Assembly (NCBI RefSeq): GCF_963921235.1
Contig: NC_086107.1
Location: forward strand, 109,990,001-110,054,000
Origin: Mobula hypostoma
Taxonomy: Eukaryota
Direction: 5' to 3'
Length of the DNA: 64,000 nt
Shown: positions 11,368 through 64,000 of the stretch, one piece after another
How the letters are laid out: each line of letters opens with the position of its first letter
How positions within the stretch are numbered: position 1 is the stretch's first letter
Notes under the pieces: generated by a model
Told to the model about the DNA's origin: nothing
The model's input: only the letters and a program-made list of their open reading frames with translations
Database searches by the model: none
Position numbers and translations under genes: made by a program

Positions 11368-11579
11368 GAGAAACACACACAAAATGCTGGAGGAACTCAG
11401 CAGGTCAGGCAGCATCTATGCAAAAGAGTAAACCGACATTCCCCAAAGAAGGGTCTCAACCCAAAACGTCGATCATTCATTCTCTTCCATAGACGCTGCC
11501 TGACCTGCTGAGTTCCTCCAGCATTTTGTATGTGTTGCTTTGGATTTCCAGCATCTGCAGATTTTCTCATTTGTGACTT
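11368..11579. mobile_element. Miniature fold-back PLE derivative
   Basis: AAAATGCTGGAGGAACTCAGCAGGTCAGGCAGC and its inverse flank a degenerate hammerhead. 13-bp TSD ACTATAAACTGCA at 11355-11367 and 11580-11592. Confidence 0.8.
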
Positions 11580-15777: not shown

Positions 15778-16806
15778 CATGACCTTGTTCTCTGTCCGGG
15801 CACAGTTACTAGATTCACTGTGAGAGCAACAACAGTCAGAAGGTACAAAGATGCAACCACTGATGTCCGTACTAACTCAGGCCCAGACACTCATGGGCCC
15901 ACCCAGGTGATAGGCAAGAATAAAGGGAAAAATAACAGAGAGCAGAGAAGAAGCACCTGCTGGAGGAGGCACTGAGGAACTCAACTGAGACCCAAGTGTC
16001 TTTGACTCCATCCTGCATCACATACAACCAAGCTCAGAAAGCCAAACATCAACTGAAACATATAGAAGACCCTGGAACACCATCTATCCCTGCTCAAGTT
16101 TTAAAACTTGGGGTAGAATCTCAAACAGAAGTTCACAGATTCACCTCCCACAACTGGGAAGAAAACAAGCCGGAGGTACCTCAGCAGGGTCAACTTCGAG
16201 TAAGAAGGTACAAAGTAACTTCACTAAATTCTGATGGTTCTCCCTGCTATCTGACATAAGAAATAAATCACTGGGCAGTTAATATACGCTATGCGTGTTC
16301 TTGGTTATATTGGACCGATAAAAATGAACGACCACCATGGGTTGATTTGGAATTGAAAGCTGTGAAACAATTTTACTTAAGTTCATTATTAGGAGCTTCT
16401 TTACCTGGACAACTAGCCAAAATTTCTATTTTAAATATAAATCCTATGATTAAGCAGTCATTACGAATTTGGTACCAGTTTCATAAGTTTTTTAAATCTT
16501 AAAAAATTTAACCTTCTTAATTTAATTTATCAAAACTATTTATTTAAACCTTCACTTAGTGATCCTACCTTTTTCTCTTTGGAGAAATAAAGGAATTTAT
16601 TCCTTTATGGATTTGTTTCAAGAAGGTTGATTGCTGTCCTTTGAGAAATTAGTAACTAAATACTCTCTTTCATACTCACACTTTCTGCAATATCTTCAGG
16701 TCCGACATTTTTATTTAAGTAATTTTCCATATATACAAGATTCTGAGGAACACTCACAATGTGCTGGAGGAACTCAGCAGGTCAATCAGCATCAGTTGAA
16801 AAGATT

Positions 16807-16842
16807 AGTCGACGTTTCGGGCCGAAACCCTTCGTCAGGACT
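16807..16842 (-). ncRNA. Minimal hammerhead ribozyme motif, core intact
   Basis: Reverse complement AGTC-CTGACGA-A-GGGT-TTCG-GCCC-GAAACGTC^GACT; stem II is capped by UUCG. Confidence 0.8.
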
Positions 16843-17985
16843 GAAGGAAGAACTTTGGGGAGGGTTTGAAGAATGCTGGTAGTTGAAAAAAACAGTAATT
16901 TTTAAGACAAAGGGGTGAGGGAGGAGAAGCAGGGAGGTGATTGGCAAGAGAACAATAGTAGGAAGAGGCGGAACTATGAGGGAGGTGATGCGAAATAGGG
17001 ATAGAGGAAGGGAGGGGGAGGGAATTACCGGAAGTTGGAGAATTCTATGTTCATACCAAGGGGCTGGAGACTACCTAGACGGTATATGAGGTGTTGCTCC
17101 TCCAACCTGAGTTTAGCCTCATCATGGCAGTAGAGGAGGCCATGTATGGACATATCTGAATGGGAATGGGAAGCAGAGTTGAAGTGGGTAGCTACTGGGA
17201 GATCCTGTCTGTTGTGGCGGACGGAGTGGAGGAGGCCACACCGGGAGCACCGGATGCAACAGATGACCCCAACAGATTCGCAAGTGAAGTGTTGCCTCAC
17301 CTGGAAGGACTGTTTGGGGCCCTGAATGGTGGCAAGAGAGGAGGTGTAGGGACAAGTGTAGCACTTATGCTTACAGGGATAAGTGTGGGTGGGAGATCCG
17401 TGGGGATGGACGTGCGGATAAGTGAGTCGCGGAGGGATCGATCCCTGCGGAAAGCGGAGAGGGGTGGAGAGAGAAAGATGTGCTTAGTGAGGCAACACTT
17501 CACTTGCGAATCTGTTGGGGTCATCTATTGCATCTGGTGCGGCCTCCTCTACATCGGTGAAACCCAACACAGATTGGGGGACCGCTTCGTCGAGCACCTC
17601 CACTCTGTCCGCCACAACAGACAGGATCTCCCGGTAGCCACCCACTTCAACTCTGCTTCCCATTCCCATTCAGATATGTCCATACATGGCCTCCTCTACT
17701 GCCATGATGAGGCTAAACTCAGGTTGGAATAGCTCACCTCATATACCGTCTAGGTAGTCTCCAGCTCCTTGGTATGAACACAGAATTCTCCAACTTCCGG
17801 TAATTCCCTCTCCCTCCCTTCCTCTATCCCTATTTCACATCACCTCCCTCATAGTTCCGCCTCCTTCTACTATTGTTCTCCTGCCAATCACCTCCCTGCT
17901 TCCCCTCCCCCACCCCTTTGTCTTAAAAATTACTGTTTTTTTCAACTACCAGCATTCTTCAAACCCTCCCCAAAGTTCTTCCTTC

Positions 17986-18021
17986 AGTCCTGATGAAGGG
18001 TTTCGGCCAGAAACGTCAACT
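17986..18021 (+). ncRNA. Minimal hammerhead ribozyme motif with stem mismatches
   Basis: AGTC-CTGATGA-AGGGTTTCGGCCA-GAAACGTC^AACT; core intact, one mismatch each in stems I and II. Confidence 0.6.
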
Positions 18022-48644: not shown

Positions 48645-49599
48645 TTAGAAACACGGGCCTTTGGCTCATGTCTGTACTTTGATACAGAGCATATTAATAA
48701 ACCTCACTTGAGACCAAAATCATTTGAAATGGTCAACTGACAAGTCTGAATTCTGACGTCCTCATTGCACAAAGCGTGAGTTTTCTCCGGTTTCCTCCCA
48801 CAATCTAAAGACATACCAAGTAATTTAATGAGTCATTGTCAATTATTCTGTGATTAGGTTAGGGGTACATTGAGGCCTATCCCGCACCATCTCTGAATTA
48901 ATTAATTCATTCATTCATTGATTTTGTTGCATAGGAGACAGACAAGAGAGCAGACTCTTAAAAAAAATAAAAAATACAGTATGAACATGCCCTAGTGGAG
49001 GAGGATGACCATGTAGTCCTGTAATATACAGACCACCCTCTCCTTCCTCACTGCTGAAACATTAATCTTTCCCCCCTCCTGCTGCTTTCTCCCTATGTCA
49101 GAGACTGAGGGAACAATGCCCTGCTGTTCCCACACTTACTGTTTCTCCATAAGGCACTGCTACAAGAAAGTAGCATCTATCAGAGTGTAATTCCCCGACC
49201 ATCCAGGTCATGCCCTCTTCTCACTGCTATTTTCTGTGCATTAAGTACGAAAGACTCAAATCCCATAGCACCATGTTCTGGAACAACTATTTTCCTATAA
49301 CCATCAGGTTCTTGAACTGACCTGCAAAACCTACCCCTACCTCAGTAACGGAACACTCCAGACCACTCTTGCACTACTGTGGACTTTCTCTGATTGTTTT
49401 TTTTCTCATTTGCACTAATGTCTTATTTGTACTTTTTTCATCAATGTATAATTTATGTATAGCTACTGTGCGTTCTGACTGAAGTTCTCTGCTTGATGCT
49501 GCTGCATGCAAGTCTTTCATTGCAATGATACAGAATTTCACCATACTTGTTCCTATGACAATAATCTTGATGTTGAGAGGGAGAAAGCATGAATAGGTA

Positions 49600-50200
49600 T
49601 ATGGCGCTCCCGTTGTGGTCTCATCTACAGTGGTGAGACCCAACATAGACTGGAGGAACCACTATGTCAATCACCTCAGCTCCATCCGCCAAAAGCAAAA
49701 TTTCCCAGTGGCCAACCATTCTGAAACCTATCCCCATTCCTGTTTGGACATGTTGAGCCATGGTCTCCTCTTTTGCAACAATGAGACCATTCTCACTGTG
49801 GAGGAGCAACAGGTCATATTCTGTCTAGGTTGCCCTCAAGCTGATGGCATAAACATCAATTTCTCCCTTTTGCTCTTCCTTCCTCTTACCTCTTCTCCTC
49901 ACCTGCCTATCACCTCCCCCTGGTGTCCCCCCTTCTTCGTCTCTCTCTCTCCTATTAGATTCCTTCCTCTCCTCTCCATCCCTTTACCTTTCCCACCCGC
50001 CTGGCTTCACCTATCACCTTCTAGCTATTCTCCTTCCCTTCCCCTCACTTTTTCATTCTGGGGTCTTCCCCATTCCTTTCCAGTCCTGAACAAGGGTCTT
50101 GGCCTGAAACGGCGACTGCTTATTCATTTCCAGAGGTGCGAGTTCCTCCAGCATTTTGTATGTGTTGCTCTGGATCTTCTGTAGAATCTCCTTATTTAAG
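49600..50200 (+). mobile_element. Degenerate Penelope-like 3' fragment
   Basis: HLSSIRQKQNFPVANH...EEQQVIFCLG..ADGININF, a pyrimidine-rich tract and a decayed hammerhead at about 50082-50117. Confidence 0.7.
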
Positions 50201-50229: not shown

Positions 50230-50900
50230 CAGTCCCAAGGGACAGCGCGGCGCAAGATCTGTTTAGCTGAACGAAGAAGCAAAGTGCGCTTAAATGGGAA
50301 CTCGGTAGGGGGTGGAAGGTCAGTTTCCTGCCGGGTGAAGTGCGGTTCCGCTCCAACGCAGGGAGGGAGGAGAGGGAGCCATGGCGTTGGTGCGCAGTGT
50401 CGTGTCTTCAGCCTGGCTGGCTGAGGCTATCCGCACGGCCAAGGCAGGCACGCTGCGGGTGCTGGATTGCTCCTGGTACCTGCCCACGGTGCCGCGCAAC
50501 GGCAGGAAGGAGTTCGAGGAACGGCATATCTCGGGGGCCGCTTTCTTCGACCTTGACGAGTGCAGCGACACCTCGTCGCCCCACGACCACATGATGCCGC
50601 CGGCCGAGCATTTCGGCCGGTACGTGGGTGCCCTGGGCATCGGCAACGCCACGCACGTCGTGGTCTACGACGCCAGCGACTGGGGGATGTTCTGCTCGCC
50701 GCGCGTCTGGTGGATGTTCCGGGCTTTCGGGCACAGCCGGGTGTCGGTGCTGGACGGGGGGTTGGAGCTTTGGTGCCGCCAGGGTCTGCCGGTCACCGCC
50801 GAGATTCAGCAGCTGCCTCCCACCCAGTTCCAGCCGCAGCCCCGAGCCTGTGTCAAGAGTTTCGAGCAGGTCCTGGACAACATTGACAGCAAGGAGTTCC
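50230..50900 (+). promoter_or_regulatory. Second CpG-rich island over the MPST main exon; possible internal promoter
   Basis: Dense CpG starting about 150 bp upstream of the ATG and continuing through the exon, unlike the flanks. Confidence 0.5.
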
Positions 50901-50960
50901 AGTTGGTGGATGCCAGACCCTCGGGCAGGTTCCAAGGCACCCAACCTGAGCCCAGACCAG
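50381..50960 (+). CDS. MPST: 3-mercaptopyruvate sulfurtransferase, main coding exon (N-terminal rhodanese domain plus linker)
   Basis: Translation MALVRSVVSSAWLAEAI...RVLDCSWYLP...HISGAAFFDLD...HMMP...VVVYD...SPRVWWMFRAFGH..VSVLDGG...LVDARPSGRFQGTQPEPRP is the TST/MPST family. Kozak context GAGCCATGG. Similarity ends at CAG|GTTTTT (50960/50961), a phase-1 intron at the position known from mammalian TST/MPST. Confidence 0.95.
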
Positions 50961-51014
50961 GTTTTTCTTCCAAATCATTCTCTCTCTGCTATGTTTCGCC
51001 TTGCACCGTTTATA

Positions 51015-53721: not shown

Positions 53722-54680
53722 CACACACAAAATGCTGGAGGAACTTGGTGGGTCAGGCAGCGTCTATGAAAATTAATACACAGTGGATGTTTTGGGCCGA
53801 GACCCTTCGTCAGGACTGAAAAGGAAGAGGGAAGACGCCAGAATAAAAAGTTGGAAGGAGGACGGGCTACAAGGAGAAAGGTGAAGCCAGGTGGGTGGGA
53901 AAGGTAAAGGGCTGGAGGAAAAGATACCTGATAGGAGGGGAGAGTGGACCACAGGAGACTGGGAAAGTGGAGGGGACCAGGGGGAAGTGATAAGTTGGTG
54001 ATAAGAGCTGAAAGACCAGCGTGGGGAATAGAGGCAGAGGTGGGGGTCGGGTGCGAGGGAACGGAAAAACATTTACTGGAAGGAGAAATCAATATTCATG
54101 CCACCAGGTTGGAGGCTACTCAGACAGAATATGAGGTGTCGCTCCTCCACTCTGAGAGTGGCCTCATCTTGACACAGGAGGAGGCCATTGACTGACATGT
54201 CGGAACAGGAATTAAAACACTTGGCCACTGGGACGTTCCGCTTTCAGCAGATTAAGCGGAGGTGCTCGACGGTGTGGTACCCCAATTTACGACAGGCCTC
54301 ACCAGTGTAGAAGAGGCCGCATCGGGAGCACCGGACACAATAGACGACCCCGGCAGGTTCACGGGTGAAGTGTTGCCTCACCTGGAAGGAGAGTTTGGGG
54401 GCCCATAAGTGGAGGTGAGGGAGGAGTTGAGTGGGCAGATGTAACACTTGTAGGGGTAAGTGCCGTGAAGGAGATTAGTGGGGAGGGACGAATGGACAAA
54501 GAAATCGCGGAGGGAGCAATCCCTGTGGAAAGTGGAGGGAGGGATGGTAAGTAAAGATGTGTAGGATCCTTTTGGAGATGGCGGGAGTTGCAGAGGATGA
54601 TGTGTTGGACATGGAGATCATGGGGTGGTAGGTAAGGGCAAGAGGAACTCTATCGCTATGAAGGCGGCGGGAAGGTGGGC
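53722..54680 (-). mobile_element. Penelope-like element 3' fragment
   Basis: (-) FQVRQHFTREPAGVVYCVRCSRCGLFYTGE; terminal motif and degenerate hammerhead at about 53783-53818. Confidence 0.8.
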
Positions 54681-54954
54681 TGAGTTGATGAAGTTATATC
54701 CCTCAAGTTTACATTTGTAACAACGTAGAAGATCAGAGATTGGATTGGGACTGGAAGGAGAATTAAAGTGACGAGGATCTGGACATTCAGGGTCACTCCA
54801 GTGGACTGATTACAGCTACTCTGCAAAGGGGTCCCTCCATCTGAGTTTGGTTTCTCCAGTGTCAAGGAAACGACGTTGTGAGTACTGAATGTAATACAAT
54901 TGATTTGTTCTTTCACCCGGAAGGGATATTTAAGTCACTGGATGGCGGGAAGAA

Positions 54955-56000: not shown

Positions 56001-56845
56001 CACAAGAGATCCTGCAGACGCTGGAAATCCAGAGCAACACACACAAAATGCTGGAGGAACTCAGCAGGTCAGGCAGCATCTATGGATATGAATAAACAGT
56101 CCACATTTCGGGCTGGTTCCTGGAGAAGGCTCTGGGCTCAAAATGTCAAAGTTCAAAGTACATTTATCATCAAAGTACGTATACAAACTTGAGATTTGCC
56201 TCCTTACAGGCAGCCACAAAACAAAGAAACCGAAAGGACCCATTTTAAAAAAAAGACTGTGCAGAAAAAAAAACGAACCGTGCAAACAAGAAAGGCAAGC
56301 AAATCACATTCAGAACTGAAGTTCACGATAGAAAGTCTGTCGACAGACACAGAGCCACAGCCTCAGCTCAGTGCAGAGCAGAGTAAACGTCATGGAGCAG
56401 CGAGCTGAACTGGCCCATCCCTCACTCCAGCCCCGTCACCCTGACCTTCTCAATCTGGCCTGCTTAAATCATCGTCCGAACGTCCAGTTCTACTGCTTTG
56501 ATAACCTTTGGGGCCGGGATCCTGCTGACTCGATTTGTCCTGGCACTTAAATCATTCAATCCTGAGGTCGTTTCTCACTCTTGTCGACAGGCCTGTACCC
56601 TCTCCTCTGTCGCCTCACCTGGGTTCTGCCGCATTGAATCACCACCAAGTCCAAAGGGAAGTTACAGGCTATTGTTTGTGGTGATTGCTTACCAAAAAGA
56701 GTGTTATAGATAAACTATTTAGTAGTTCCCTTTGTTTTGTTTGCTGCTGATAAGTGGTCGCTGAGCTTCATCTTAAACCGGACTGTTTATTCATTTCTAT
56801 AGATGCTATCTGATCTGCTGAGTTCCGCCAGCACTTTGTGGGTAT
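56001..56845. mobile_element. Short fold-back PLE derivative split by a ~630 bp insertion
   Basis: Terminal motif at 56040-56110 and its inverse at 56781-56840. The insert (about 56148-56780) has an L2/Rex-type TTTGAACTTT tail on the minus strand. Confidence 0.6.
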
Positions 56846-61425: not shown

Positions 61426-61740
61426 TATTTATCCTGAGGTTAAAGTCATGTAGAATTGGAATGGTGAACTTGTTACATTCTTTCTGCTACCCAGTCTGCC
61501 AGGCCTTCCAGTACTTAGGGTGGCATAGTAGTTGTGCATTGCTAAAGCGCCACTGACCCTGGGGTCAATTCCTGCCACTGTCTGTAAGGAGCTGGTATGT
61601 TCTCACTGTGACTGCGTGGTTTTCCTCCAGGTGCTCTGGTTTCCTCCCATATTTCAAAGATGTAAGTTTTAGCAGGTGAATTGATCACATGGGTGGCGTG
61701 AGCTCGTTGGGCTGGAAGGGCCTGTGCTATATCTCTAAAT

Positions 61741-61806
61741 CAGGGGCTCCCAACTTGCTTAATGGTTTGGTCCATGGCATTTAAAAAAAAAAGGTGGGAG
61801 CCCCTG
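61741..61806. mobile_element. Tiny hAT-like MITE (related copies at about 2930-3010 and 40095-40160)
   Basis: CAGGGGCTCCCA...TGGGAGCCCCTG with imperfect 8-bp flanks CTCTAAAT/CCGTAAAT. Confidence 0.6.
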
Positions 61807-61897
61807 CCGTAAATAAATAAATAAAATTTCCAGCATGAAAAGATTTTTGGTTTGCTTTGGGAAAGTTTTAATCTTTCTCTCTGCCCTATTTCTCAAG

Positions 61898-62199
61898 GTT
61901 TCGACCCTGGTCACATCCCAGGCAGTGTCAATATCCCTTTCAGTGAATTCTTGGACCCAGAGACTCTAAGGATCAAGAGTGAGAAAGAGCTGCGGAACCT
62001 CTTTGAAGAGCGTGGTGTTGACCTGTCCAAACCGCTGGTGGGCACCTGTGGCTCAGGGGTCTCTGCCTGCCACGTCGCTCTTGCTGCCAGCCTGTGCGGG
62101 CAAGACAACGTGATGATCTACGATGGCGCCTGGGTGGAGTGGTTCAGAAGAGCTAGTCCGAGTTACATCATCTCGGTGAAAAGTGAGAAAACTGGGTAA
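61898..62199 (+). CDS. MPST: MPST last coding exon (catalytic C-terminal rhodanese domain)
   Basis: Polypyrimidine tract and AG at 61896-61897. The phase-1 join gives PRP-G-FDPGHIPGSVNIPF...GTCGSGVSACH...YDGAWVEW...TAA (580+302 nt = 293 aa plus stop). The loop CGSGVS (62047-62064) is MPST-type (CGSGVT), not TST-type (CRKGVT). Confidence 0.95.
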
Positions 62200-62293
62200 T
62201 CACCACTGAAGTCAATGGCTTGGGGTTGAAGCCACACACATCAAAGTTGCTGGTGAGCGCAGCAGGCCAGGCAGCAACTCTAGGAAGAGGTAC

Positions 62294-62329
62294 AGTCAAC
62301 GTTTCAGGCCGAGACCCTTCATCAGGACT
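62294..62329 (-). ncRNA. Minimal hammerhead ribozyme motif (antisense arm)
   Basis: The reverse complement reads AGTC-CTGATGA-AGGGTCTCGGCCT-GAAACGTT^GACT (GUU triplet). Confidence 0.7.
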
Positions 62330-63042
62330 AAGTGAAGGAAGAGCTAGTAAGAGATTTGAAAGTGGGAGAGGGAGGGGGAGATCCGAAATGATAGGAGAAG
62401 ACAGGAGGGGGAGGGATGGAGCCAAGAGCTGGACAGGTGACTGGCAAAAGGGATACAAGAGGATCATGGGACAAGAGGTCCGGGAAGAAAGACCAGGGGA
62501 AGAACCCAGAGGATGGGCAAGGGGTATATTCAGGGACAGAGGGAGAAAAAGGAGAGTGAGAGAAAGAATGTGTGTATAAAAATAAATAACAGATGGGGTA
62601 CGAGGGGGAGGTGGGGCATTAGCAGAAGTTAGAGAAGTCAATGTTCATGCCATCAGGTTGGAGGCTACCCAGACGGAGTATAAGGTGTTGTTCCTCCAAC
62701 CTGAGTGTGGCTTCATCTTTACAGTAGAGGAGGCCGTGGATAGACATGTCAGAATGGGAATGGGATGTGGAATTAAAGTGTGTGGCCACTGGGAGATCCT
62801 GCTTCCTCTGGCGGACAGAGCATAGGTGTTCAGCAAAGCGGTCTCCCAGTCTGCGTCGGGTCTCGCCAATATATAAAAGGCCACATCGGGAGCACCGGAC
62901 GCAGTATATCACCCCAGCCGACTCATAGGTGAAATCACCTGTCCAGCTCTTGGCTCCATCCCTCCCCCTCCTGTCTTCTATCATTTTGGATCTCCCCCTC
63001 CCCCTCCAACTTTCAAATGTCTTACTCACTCTTCCTTCAGTT

Positions 63043-63078
63043 AGTCCTGACGAAGGGTCTCGGCCTGAAACGTCGACT
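63043..63078 (+). ncRNA. Minimal type I hammerhead ribozyme motif, core intact
   Basis: AGTC-CTGACGA-AGGGTCTCGGCCT-GAA-ACGT-C^GACT: stem I AGTC/GACT, CUGANGA and GAAA cores, loopless palindromic stem III, GUC cleavage triplet. Confidence 0.8.
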
Positions 63079-63485
63079 GTACCTCTTCCTAGAGATGCTG
63101 CCTGGCCTGCTGCATTCACCAGCAACTTTGATGTGTGTTGCTTGAATTTCCAGCATCTGCAGAATTCCTGTTGTTTGCGGCTTGGGGTTGACTTCTGAGA
63201 TCTGTGAAAAATTAGTGAGTCCCTTTTTTAAACCAGCGTCAGGGCACTCTATCTAATATTTAACCAGGAGGAAATATTAAAACGAAGTGTGTTTTAAATG
63301 TTCTGTGGAATATGTCTGGCACTCTTTATGGCAGTGTGTAGCAACAGTTACATCCTCTTCTTCCATGGTTTCCATGAGCTGGTGAGTTAACGGACTAAGT
63401 GTTGAACCTCTGTTTATCTTCTGATCCTTATGGTTCTTCCAGGAGTCAAAAAGTTGTGAGCAGTCTTTATTCTAACGATCGTACA

Positions 63486-63639
63486 AATAAACCTACAAAT
63501 ACTAAGCAAACTAAATAAAGAACTGAGGAAGGATGCTGAGAGGTGAATTCAAAGACAAAAGAATAAAGAAGCAAAGCAAAAGATGGTGCCTCTGAAAAAT
63601 CCATGACTTTTATAGATAAGAAACTTCTTAGATAATAAA
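63486..63639 (+). terminator. Cluster of candidate MPST polyadenylation signals
   Basis: AATAAA at 63486, 63514, 63562 and 63634 downstream of the PLE insertion. Another AATAAA lies inside the insertion at 62581. Confidence 0.45.
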
Positions 63640-64000
63640 CTAGTTAATAGGCTACATAATTAAAATAATTGCATCACGTGGGTGATGTGCTAATACTTAG
63701 CCAATGAAAAATGAGAAAAGGTGATAAACCATTAGTTCAGCTGTTATACCACTTTCTGCCAGAGAGTGGGGATGAAACACTATGTATGGTGAAAAATACA
63801 TGAGTTTATTTAAAAAGTACGAATCTTATAATAAGTACGGTATTATCAAAAAAAAACAGTGATCTTCAAAAGTGGGTTGACAAATGTCAAGGTGACTCCT
63901 CAAGGTGCTGTGGTGGAACTGTTAATGAGAGGGGAATGTGCAGGCAAACATCATGCAGAATGCTGGCATGCTAGTGTAGTGGTTAGCGTGACGCTATTAC

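What the first reader, a model, noticed from the sequence alone, without database searches (positions are those of the whole stretch)
62217..63191. Hammerhead-bearing fold-back Penelope element inserted about 30 nt after the MPST stop codon
Seen: a 949-bp insertion with a perfect 13-bp TSD (GGCTTGGGGTTGA) and ~205-bp inverted arms. It carries an intact sense-strand hammerhead motif (63043-63078, predicted cut after 63074), an antisense copy (62294-62329) and an AATAAA at 62581; the other AATAAA signals (63486 onward) lie beyond it. Removing the insertion leaves about 325 nt from the stop codon to 63486, a plausible ancestral 3' UTR. Known: PLEs carry minimal hammerheads, and 3' UTR inverted repeats form dsRNA that ADAR can edit. 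Inference: MPST mRNA may have three competing fates: early polyadenylation at 62581, a long hairpin that sequesters the ribozyme, or self-cleavage that removes the poly(A) tail. That would make a transposon-built RNA switch on a sulfur-transfer/H2S enzyme, but it may equally be a neutral insertion.
Basis: partly seen in the sequence, partly recalled or inferred. Interest (0 to 1): 0.85.

Follow-up and report, generated by a model that had tools for sequence, protein, structure and literature searches.

The report
Retroelement fold-back in MPST 3' UTR
A common jumping gene of the Penelope type landed just behind the stop codon of the sulfur-transfer enzyme gene MPST as its usual two-armed inverted insertion, and it is carried along in the messenger RNA, but its small self-cutting RNA motif is very unlikely to act there, so this is an ordinary insertion rather than an RNA switch.

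Summary
There is an exact 13-nt target-site duplication, probably 14 nt. The arms are about 210 nt long and 92% alike. A sense minimal hammerhead lies at 63043-63078 and an antisense copy at 62294-62329. AATAAA is at 62581.

The insert is one Penelope-like element (PLE) insertion unit. A 704-nt 5'-truncated copy lies on the minus strand and ends in a GIY-YIG endonuclease frame. It is joined head to head to a 245-nt plus-strand copy that carries the 36-nt PLE "tail". This layout is the family's norm: 14 of 29 sampled copies have such a partner, and 8 of 10 complete pairs have 11-15-nt duplications.

Spliced RNA contigs of two organisms cross both junctions and run on to the window end. A third organism's mRNA contig joins 62215 to 63178, which is the empty site.

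The hammerhead has no helix III. According to the papers read, such monomers do not cleave without a second copy or the element's protein. Here it is also locked in a duplex of about -400 kcal/mol.

The three-fate switch is not supported. Cleavage and editing could not be tested. The scan has met similar PLE hammerhead pairs in other genomes.

The parts
50381..50960 (+). MPST first coding exon (ATG 50381, donor GT at 50961)
   Evidence: Open frame, sequence. The loose end of a spliced RNA contig equals 50929-50958 exactly.
61898..62199 (+). MPST last coding exon with the rhodanese active-site loop CGSGVSAC; stop TAA at 62197-62199
   Evidence: Best PDB matches are 3-mercaptopyruvate sulfurtransferases, E 2e-36. 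Pfam Rhodanese E 4.7e-10. RNA contigs start at the acceptor, 61896.
62217..62229 (.). Left copy of the target-site duplication (14 nt if 62216 is counted)
   Evidence: Exact 13-nt repeat. 62216 is C in organism B.
62230..62933 (-). PLE copy 1: 704 nt, 5'-truncated, without tail; antisense to MPST
   Evidence: 94% identical to copies elsewhere in the genome. All 29 sampled copies extend further 5' by 74 to at least 1500 nt.
62622..62933 (-). End of the PLE reading frame: GIY-YIG endonuclease domain (stop at 62619-62621)
   Evidence: Pfam PF01541, 26.5 bits against a cut-off of 22.6, E 8.2e-6. Frame.
62294..62329 (-). Hammerhead motif of copy 1; it lies on the minus strand, so it is antisense in the MPST RNA
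   Evidence: N7 is U and the cleavage triplet is GUU.
62581..62586 (+). AATAAA inside the insert (antisense side of copy 1)
   Evidence: Sequence. Whether it is used was not shown.
62934..63178 (+). PLE copy 2: the 3'-terminal 245 nt, in the MPST sense, joined head to head to copy 1
   Evidence: 97% identical to the long copy L028. The junction falls at 62933|62934.
63043..63078 (+). Sense minimal type I hammerhead motif. Helix I is UAGUC/GACUG, helix II is GGGU/GCCU with loop CUCG, there is no helix III, and the predicted cut is after 63074
   Evidence: 63030-63095 is identical to the family's commonest sequence.
63143..63178 (+). 36-nt PLE tail, present on this arm only
   Evidence: 15 of 29 family copies end with it and 14 of 29 without. 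The tail is described in PMC11167929 and PMC8557442.
63179..63191 (.). Right copy of the target-site duplication
63192..64000 (+). Rest of the MPST 3' UTR, transcribed beyond the insert to at least the window end
   Evidence: RNA contigs cover 63150-63664/63710 and 63685-64000 in organisms A and B. Organism F's contig reaches 63815.

Best explanation
One retrotransposition event of an abundant Penelope-like element placed the family's usual insertion unit 30 nt after the MPST stop codon. The unit consists of two 5'-truncated copies joined head to head, with 3' ends facing outward, one end tailed and one not, flanked by a 13-14-nt target duplication. Priming of reverse transcription on both cut target strands would give this shape (inferred from PMC11167929). 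The insert is now part of the MPST 3' UTR in two organisms and is absent from a third (shown). In the mRNA the two arms most likely pair into a duplex of about 210 bp that buries the sense hammerhead (predicted). That hammerhead is the helix-III-less PLE type, which needs a second copy or the element's protein to cut. It is therefore most likely a silent passenger. The real consequences are a UTR about 950 nt longer and a long double-stranded stem. That stem may attract dsRNA-binding or editing proteins (inferred, untested).
For: PLE identity and family features:
- The window's own copy has a GIY-YIG frame above the Pfam cut-off.
- Longer copies carry an RT-like frame with YIDD upstream of the GIY-YIG.
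- There were 7987 first-look candidates in the 3.48-Gb genome.
- 5' truncation is variable in 29 of 29 copies.
- The tail is present in 15 of 29 copies.

The fold-back is the family norm:
- An abutting head-to-head partner was found in 14 of 29 loci.
- Exact 11-15-nt flanking repeats surround 8 of 10 complete pairs; 0 of 216 random placements gave 8 nt or more.
- Exactly one arm is tailed in 10 of 10 pairs and in 13 of 13 further pairs. This matches the Fig. 2 legend of PMC8557442.

Transcription:
- Contigs of X1 and X2 (organism A) and X5 (organism B) cover 61896-62260 and 63150 onward.
- One X2 contig carries exon 1 sequence spliced onto 61896, so these runs hold RNA.
- Word depths before and after the insert are 334/259, 262/190 and 83/79, against 11-42 in the intron. 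This is a weak hint only.

Empty site:
- The 1621-nt X19 contig joins 62215 to 63178.

Ribozyme:
- The hammerhead-competent monomer fold is -7.6 kcal/mol against a local minimum of -13.1 (z -0.32).
- The duplex of the hammerhead segment with its antisense partner is -121.9 kcal/mol and that of the whole arms is -399.9.
- The minimum-energy fold of the whole insert pairs the arms.
- Literature: single minimal hammerheads showed no detectable cleavage and dimers cleaved weakly (PMC4209133). The Anolis PLE hammerhead cleaved only with its protein, and no RNA-seq ends were found at its site (PMC11167929).
Against: - Nothing here measures cleavage, polyadenylation or editing. The runs were contigs, which cannot show RNA ends. 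The arms are swamped by thousands of other copies.
- Contig depth is 5-27% lower after the insert than before it, so some early termination or cutting is not excluded.
- The sense arm is closer to the family's commonest sequence than the antisense arm: of 14 differences, 12 are derived on the left and 2 on the right. This could be read as constraint on the sense hammerhead.
- Against that reading, the arms carry different linked family variants, ACA against CAG. The whole left copy is also more diverged, 93.8% against 97.1% to L028. Both facts point to two different templates.
- PLE-derived RNA is very abundant in these runs, so a partner for dimer formation in trans exists in principle.
Confidence: 0.85

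Rival explanations
1. One reading: the MPST mRNA is partitioned between early polyadenylation at 62581, a hairpin that hides the ribozyme, and hammerhead self-cleavage after 63074 that removes the poly(A) tail.
For: All sequence parts are present. The sense motif equals the family's commonest sequence over 66 nt. Transcripts do contain it, because contigs cross the right junction. Depth after the insert is somewhat lower (weak). A hammerhead in a 3' UTR can lower expression, as in Clec2d (PMC2950038, passages).
Against: The motif has no helix III. Monomers of this type did not cleave in vitro. The one PLE hammerhead tested needed its protein. The active fold costs about 5 kcal/mol over the local minimum and competes with a -122 kcal/mol duplex. 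The 10.1-11.1 pair is G.U or A-U, not G-C. No Rfam hammerhead model matches. The layout is the default product of the family and is found at about half of the sampled loci. The site is empty in organism F, so the element is not conserved.
Confidence: 0.04
2. The ribozyme is irrelevant, but the 210-bp double-stranded stem is a working regulatory element of MPST, acting through editing, nuclear retention, Staufen-type decay or small-RNA production, and is kept by selection.
For: A very stable stem is predicted. The insert is present and transcribed in two organisms. Long inverted repeats in 3' UTRs are known dsRNA substrates (recalled, no call).
Against: There is no evidence of selection. The arms were already about 7% different, probably from the start, because they are different source variants. 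No compensatory changes could be examined. Editing could not be read because other copies swamp the arms. Depth on both sides is similar.
Confidence: 0.1
3. The AATAAA at 62581 gives a shorter MPST mRNA isoform as a side effect of the insertion.
For: The signal is present. Depth after the insert is 73-95% of that before it (weak).
Against: Contigs cannot show poly(A) sites. The bulk of the signal continues past the insert to the window end.
Confidence: 0.15
4. The structure is an assembly artefact, or two independent nested insertions.
For: Complex PLE repeats are said to trouble assemblies (PMC8557442).
Against: Both junctions are seen in RNA contigs of three runs from two organisms. One duplication flanks the whole pair. 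The two copies abut at 62933|62934. The same architecture with 11-15-nt duplications recurs.
Confidence: 0.02

Closest known systems
Standard insertion unit of endonuclease-bearing Penelope-like elements (Craig et al. 2021, PMC8557442, passages read; Frangieh et al. 2024, PMC11167929, main text read)
   Same: 5' truncation, an inverted 5'-truncated copy abutting the main copy, a 30-40-nt tail at one end only, a GIY-YIG frame, a hammerhead in the terminal non-coding part, and a target duplication.
   Different: Nothing in kind. This family has not been compared here with named clades (Penelope/Poseidon, Neptune, Nematis). The main copy is short, at 704 nt.
Minimal hammerheads (min-HHR) of metazoan PLEs (Cervera and de la Pena 2014, PMC4209133, parts 1-2 read)
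   Same: [quoted passage not shown] Pairs on opposite strands 100-700 bp apart are noted in that paper.
   Different: Position 11.1 is U in this family, so the pair next to the core is G.U or A-U rather than the G-C called highly conserved. Helix II is 4 bp, not 6-8 bp.
Discontinuous hammerhead in the 3' UTRs of mammalian Clec2 genes (Martick et al. 2008, seen only through the review PMC2950038, passages)
   Same: A hammerhead motif in the 3' UTR of a protein-coding mRNA. That ribozyme cut reporter expression by 80%.
   Different: The Clec2 ribozyme is a complete three-helix hammerhead conserved among orthologues. This one lacks helix III, is a repeat copy, is absent from a related organism, and is paired with its antisense.
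Hammerhead-bearing non-LTR retrozymes of Xenopus overlapping exons (Li et al. 2026, bioRxiv 10.64898/2026.07.22.740005, abstract and one section read)
   Same: PLE-derived hammerhead repeats are rare in exons (0.24-0.32%), and those that overlap exons tend to sit in the last exon or 3' UTR.
   Different: Those are tandem non-autonomous repeats. This is a truncated autonomous-family copy pair.
Engineered ribozymes with upstream competing strands (PMC7192461, search listing only)
   Different: That is a designed system with fast ribozymes and short competing strands. Here the ribozyme is a weak type and the competing strand is a full 210-nt arm.
Inverted Alu pairs in human 3' UTRs (recalled, no call)
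   Same: A transposon-made long hairpin in a 3' UTR, a known substrate for editing and nuclear retention.
   Different: Different element and lineage. No editing was shown here.

Membership tests
Penelope-like element (endonuclease-bearing) | C-terminal GIY-YIG endonuclease domain | tested here: met
   Window 62622-62933 minus strand: PF01541, 26.5 bits against a cut-off of 22.6. The longer copy L028 scores 22.1 bits.
Penelope-like element (endonuclease-bearing) | Reverse transcriptase upstream in the same frame direction | tested here: inconclusive
   L028 152-1492: RVT_1 E 1.8e-5, but 25.0 bits is below the cut-off of 29.6. A YIDD motif is seen. The nearest Atlas clusters carry HTH_animal, GIY-YIG and RVT_1. 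The window's own copy is truncated before this part. No comparison with a named PLE RT was made.
Penelope-like element (endonuclease-bearing) | Variable 5' truncation, with an inverted 5'-truncated copy abutting | tested here: met
   29 of 29 copies are truncated at different points. 14 of 29 loci have an abutting inverted partner.
Penelope-like element (endonuclease-bearing) | Optional 30-40-nt tail, often at one end only | tested here: met
   A 36-nt tail is present on the right arm only. 15 of 29 copies are tailed. One tail per pair in 10 of 10 and 13 of 13 pairs.
Penelope-like element (endonuclease-bearing) | Hammerhead motif in the terminal repeat region | tested here: met
   The motif lies about 290 nt after the frame's stop and about 65-100 nt from the 3' end.
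PLE minimal hammerhead (min-HHR) | Core boxes CUGANGA and GAAA with a cleavable triplet | tested here: met
   CUGACGA, GAAAC and GUC at 63047-63074. 28 relaxed-core and 18 exact matches in 29 loci, where 41 copies cover the motif.
PLE minimal hammerhead (min-HHR) | [quoted passage not shown] | tested here: met
   An A follows CUGACGA when helix II is read as GGGU/GCCU.
PLE minimal hammerhead (min-HHR) | G10.1-C11.1 pair | tested here: not met
   Position 11.1 is U here and in nearly all family copies; C occurs in 3 rows. This gives G.U, or A-U in the other register. Older PLE motifs in the window, at 16811-16838, have G-C.
PLE minimal hammerhead (min-HHR) | Palindromic 15.2-16.2 and no stable helix III (dimer type) | tested here: met
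   ACGU lies within GUCGAC. The monomer cannot form helix III. The homodimer cofold is -32.7 kcal/mol.
PLE minimal hammerhead (min-HHR) | Self-cleavage | not testable with these tools
   The runs are contigs only, and no molecule ends were listed (table 6).
Rfam hammerhead families | Match to a curated covariance model | tested here: not met
   No hit at gathering score in the window, nor at E up to 1 in 61500-64000.
Regulatory 3' UTR hammerhead (Clec2 type) | Complete three-helix ribozyme conserved among orthologues | tested here: not met
   No helix III. The site is empty in organism F.

The most novel reading that the evidence does not exclude
The sense minimal hammerhead in the MPST mRNA is cut in vivo. 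This would happen when the hairpin is opened by editing or helicases and the motif pairs in trans with one of the very abundant PLE transcripts, or is helped by PLE protein. MPST output in this lineage would then depend on transposon activity. The species pair with and without the insert would be a natural test of whether PLE minimal hammerheads act inside host mRNAs.
Probability: 0.04. Interest if true: 0.65.

Novelty: new member of a known kind. Interest (0 to 1): 0.2.

Why it matters
As it stands this is one more copy of a very common retroelement, in its textbook inverted form, that happens to sit in a 3' UTR. Its modest value is as a clean natural case. The same gene is transcribed with the insert in two organisms and without it in a third. 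The effect of a 210-bp transposon hairpin and of a PLE minimal hammerhead on a host mRNA could therefore be measured directly. It also adds numbers to a described but rarely quantified rule: in this family, 23 of 23 other head-to-head pairs, and this one, carry the tail on exactly one arm.

Tried and rejected
- Rfam scans gave no hammerhead, only sub-threshold plant miRNA hits on an intron hairpin.
- No listed holder is on record as RNA. RNA origin was inferred from a spliced contig instead.
- Editing (A-to-G) in the arms could not be read. Depth there is 10^4-10^5 from other copies, and only contigs were available.
- No RNA ends were listed at 63074 or near 62600 (table 6). Contigs cannot show ends, so this says nothing.
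- Dating the insertion from arm divergence (K2P 0.07) was rejected. The arms carry different linked family variants, and within-pair identity (0.92-0.99) is no higher than between loci (0.955 mean).
- A fuzzy-regex scan timed out and was replaced by BLAST.
- Lunse et al. 2017 on dimer cleavage is not held. It is known here only through the review PMC6765202 (passages).
- Notes of this scan on this genome: none.
- Supplements of the papers were not opened. Supplementary figures S2-S6 of PMC4209133 may show vertebrate motifs closer to this one.
- The clade of the element (Neptune, Poseidon and so on) was not determined. The Atlas gave only unnamed clusters.

Full report
**What is in the sequence**

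The last coding exon of the gene runs from 61898 to the stop TAA at 62197-62199. Its 99 residues match solved 3-mercaptopyruvate sulfurtransferases best (E 2e-36), ahead of rhodaneses (E about 2e-30). They also match Pfam Rhodanese. The first coding exon is 50381-50960.

Thirty nucleotides after the stop the sequence GGCTTGGGGTTGA occurs at 62217-62229, and again exactly at 63179-63191. Between the two copies lie 949 nt whose ends are inverted repeats. A gapped alignment gives 195 matches, 13 mismatches and one 3-nt gap between 62935-63142 and the reverse complement of 62230-62440. The right arm continues 36 nt further out, 63143-63178, than the left.

The pattern CTGANGA..GAAACGTC occurs three times in the window against 0.01 expected. 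One occurrence is at 63047-63074 on the plus strand. The left arm holds the same motif on the minus strand with two changes. AATAAA is at 62581 and the next one at 63486.

**What the insert is**

The minus strand of 62622-62933 encodes the end of a reading frame with a GIY-YIG endonuclease domain, above the Pfam cut-off. The window's genome is 3.48 Gb. It gave 7987 first-look candidates for the insert, and the best 40 scored about 94% identity.

These copies match 62230-62933 as one colinear piece. The right arm, 62934-63178, matches the same DNA in reverse. The insert is therefore two copies of one element:
- a 704-nt copy on the minus strand;
- a 245-nt copy of its 3' end on the plus strand, joined head to head at 62933|62934.

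All 29 other sampled copies extend further 5', by 74 to at least 1500 nt. This is the variable 5' truncation expected of target-primed reverse transcription. Longer copies carry a frame with an RT-like region and a YIDD motif ahead of the GIY-YIG domain. The RVT_1 match is E 1.8e-5 but falls below Pfam's cut-off.

Copies end either with or without the last 36 nt: 15 of 29 with and 14 of 29 without. This corresponds to the PLE "tail", an optional 30-40-nt extension between two internal start sites of reverse transcription (PMC11167929, main text).

**The fold-back is the family's normal product**

In 14 of the 29 loci the main copy abuts an inverted 5'-truncated partner within 31 nt. Around 8 of the 10 pairs that lie wholly inside their locus there is an exact direct repeat of 11-15 nt. 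None of 216 random placements gave 8 nt or more.

In all 10 of those pairs one arm has the tail and the other does not. A second sample of 29 loci was chosen by a tailed arm. It broke down as follows:
- 13 partners with a visible 3' end, all 13 without tail;
- 2 partners 3'-incomplete;
- 3 partners running off the locus;
- 11 copies with no partner.

[quoted passage not shown] 2 legend and text passages). Cervera and de la Pena also noted pairs of minimal hammerheads 100-700 bp apart on opposite strands (PMC4209133). The purified Anolis PLE protein cleaves and extends both target strands (PMC11167929), which would produce two inward-growing copies. That this mechanism made the present insert is inference.

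The window itself holds two more head-to-head pairs of older PLE families, at 11369-11567 and 16746-18017.

**The two arms were probably never identical**

The arms differ at 14 positions. At 12 of them the left arm differs from the state most family copies share, and at only 2 does the right arm. Three of these positions form linked variants in the family: ACA in 20 copies, CAA in 11 and CAG in 5. The right arm is ACA and the left is CAG.

Arms of other pairs are no more alike (0.92-0.99) than copies from different loci (mean 0.955, sd 0.019, 767 pairs). I therefore do not use arm divergence as a clock. I also read the better state of the sense arm as a matter of template, not of selection.

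**Transcription, and an empty site**

No run is on record as RNA. However, a contig of X2 that covers 61896-62260 carries at its 5' side 30 letters that equal window 50929-50958, the end of exon 1. It is spliced across the 10.9-kb intron, so these runs hold RNA.

In X1 and X2 (organism A) and X5 (organism B), contigs run from the exon into the left arm up to 62260. Other contigs run from 63150, inside the right arm, out to 63664/63710 and on to 64000. The breaks about 30 nt inside the repeat are what a word-based assembler does at a repeat. Both junctions are thus transcribed.

The transcripts do not stop at 63486.

Word depths are 334, 262 and 83 before the insert and 259, 190 and 79 after it, against 11-42 in the intron. 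By the tool's own caution this is only a weak hint that most transcripts read through.

In X19 (organism F) a single 1621-nt contig covers 61896-62215 and continues without a break at 63178-63815. It also extends 606 letters upstream of 61896, about the length of exon 1. This is the empty site. It confirms the insertion boundaries and suggests a 14-nt duplication, because 62216 is C in organism B and 63178 is C in the window.

The insert is therefore younger than the split from F and is shared by A and B. Whether it is fixed was not tested.

**The hammerhead**

The sense motif reads UAGUC-CUGACGA-A-GGGU(CUCG)GCCU-GAAAC-GUC-GACUG. It has both core boxes, the extra nucleotide after position 9, a 5-bp helix I with one G.U pair, a 4-bp helix II, the palindromic ACGU, and no helix III. 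These are features of the minimal hammerheads of metazoan PLEs (PMC4209133).

Over 66 nt it is identical to the commonest sequence of its family. In the 29 loci the exact motif occurs 18 times and a relaxed core 28 times, where 41 copies cover the motif.

One feature called highly conserved in that paper is not met. The pair next to the core is G.U, or A-U in the other register, not G-C. No Rfam hammerhead model matches.

The papers read say the following:
- A single minimal motif showed no detectable cleavage, and dimers showed low cleavage (PMC4209133).
- Such ribozymes probably act as dimers (PMC6765202, passages).
- The Anolis PLE hammerhead did not cleave without its protein, and no RNA-seq reads ended at its site (PMC11167929).

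The MPST RNA contains only one sense motif.

Energetically, the hammerhead-competent fold of the 55-nt segment is -7.6 kcal/mol against a local minimum of -13.1, which is no better than shuffles (z -0.32). The same segment paired with its antisense partner gives -121.9 kcal/mol, and the whole arms give -399.9. The minimum-energy and centroid folds of 62200-63200 both pair the arms end to end. The antisense arm is transcribed first, so the motif would be captured as it emerges. That last step is inference.

**Verdict**

This is a real and well-bounded Penelope-like element insertion in the 3' UTR of MPST. It is transcribed as part of the mRNA and carries an intact-looking copy of its family's minimal hammerhead in the sense strand.

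Every structural feature that made it look designed is the default outcome of PLE integration in this genome: the fold-back, the two opposed hammerheads and the duplication. The proposed three-fate switch has no support from the data that could be obtained, and it runs against what is known of this ribozyme type. It is not formally excluded, because cleavage, poly(A) site use and editing could not be measured with contigs.

The closest functional precedent for the idea is the Clec2 3' UTR hammerhead (PMC2950038), which is a complete, conserved ribozyme. Hammerhead-bearing PLE derivatives have also already been noted in last exons and 3' UTRs in Xenopus (bioRxiv 10.64898/2026.07.22.740005). Earlier notes of this scan describe similar PLE hammerhead pairs in other genomes and also filed them as a known kind.

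I rate it a new member of a known kind, of low interest. It has a small residual value as a natural with-and-without comparison.

Noticed in passing
window 16746-18017: Another head-to-head pair of a more diverged PLE family, 70-77% identical to the long copy L028. The junction is near 17487-17489. Hammerhead motifs lie at 16811-16838 (minus strand, helix II closed by G-C) and 17990-18017 (plus strand, A at 11.1).
   Followed up: partly
window 11369-11567: A short head-to-head pair of PLE 3' ends, 11417-11369 on the minus strand and 11448-11567 on the plus strand, about 78-82% identical to L028.
   Followed up: no
window 49597-50181: A plus-strand PLE 3' fragment with a GIY-YIG-like frame. It ends about 200 nt before the MPST start codon at 50381. 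Its hammerhead at 50082-50118 is decayed: the core reads CTGAACA and the triplet GGC. Whether it contributes to the MPST promoter or 5' UTR was not examined.
   Followed up: no
window 53780-54684 and 56009-56113: Minus-strand PLE fragments inside the 10.9-kb MPST intron. At least six PLE-derived pieces lie in the 64-kb window.
   Followed up: no
window 61729-61821: A hairpin of about 90 nt in the intron just before the last exon. It gives only sub-threshold matches to plant miRNA models (E 0.07-0.33). The neighbouring 61600-61680 has a depth of about 20,000 in the RNA contigs. It is probably a small repeat, not a miRNA.
   Followed up: no
loci L002-L060 (family copies in G000): In every head-to-head pair whose two ends could be seen (10 of 10, 13 of 13, plus the window's own), exactly one arm carries the 36-nt tail. 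Single copies are tailed about half the time. This quantifies a rule stated only as 'often' in PMC8557442. It may say that the two priming events use the two start sites one each.
   Followed up: partly
window 62230-62440 versus 62935-63142: The two arms carry different linked variants of the family, CAG against ACA at 63008/63027/63028. The two copies of one insertion event seem to come from different template sequences.
   Followed up: partly
window 63950-64000 and L001 3230-3400: The 3' UTR contigs of organism A run on past the window end into sequence that looks like another dispersed repeat. The true mRNA end lies outside the window and was not found.
   Followed up: no
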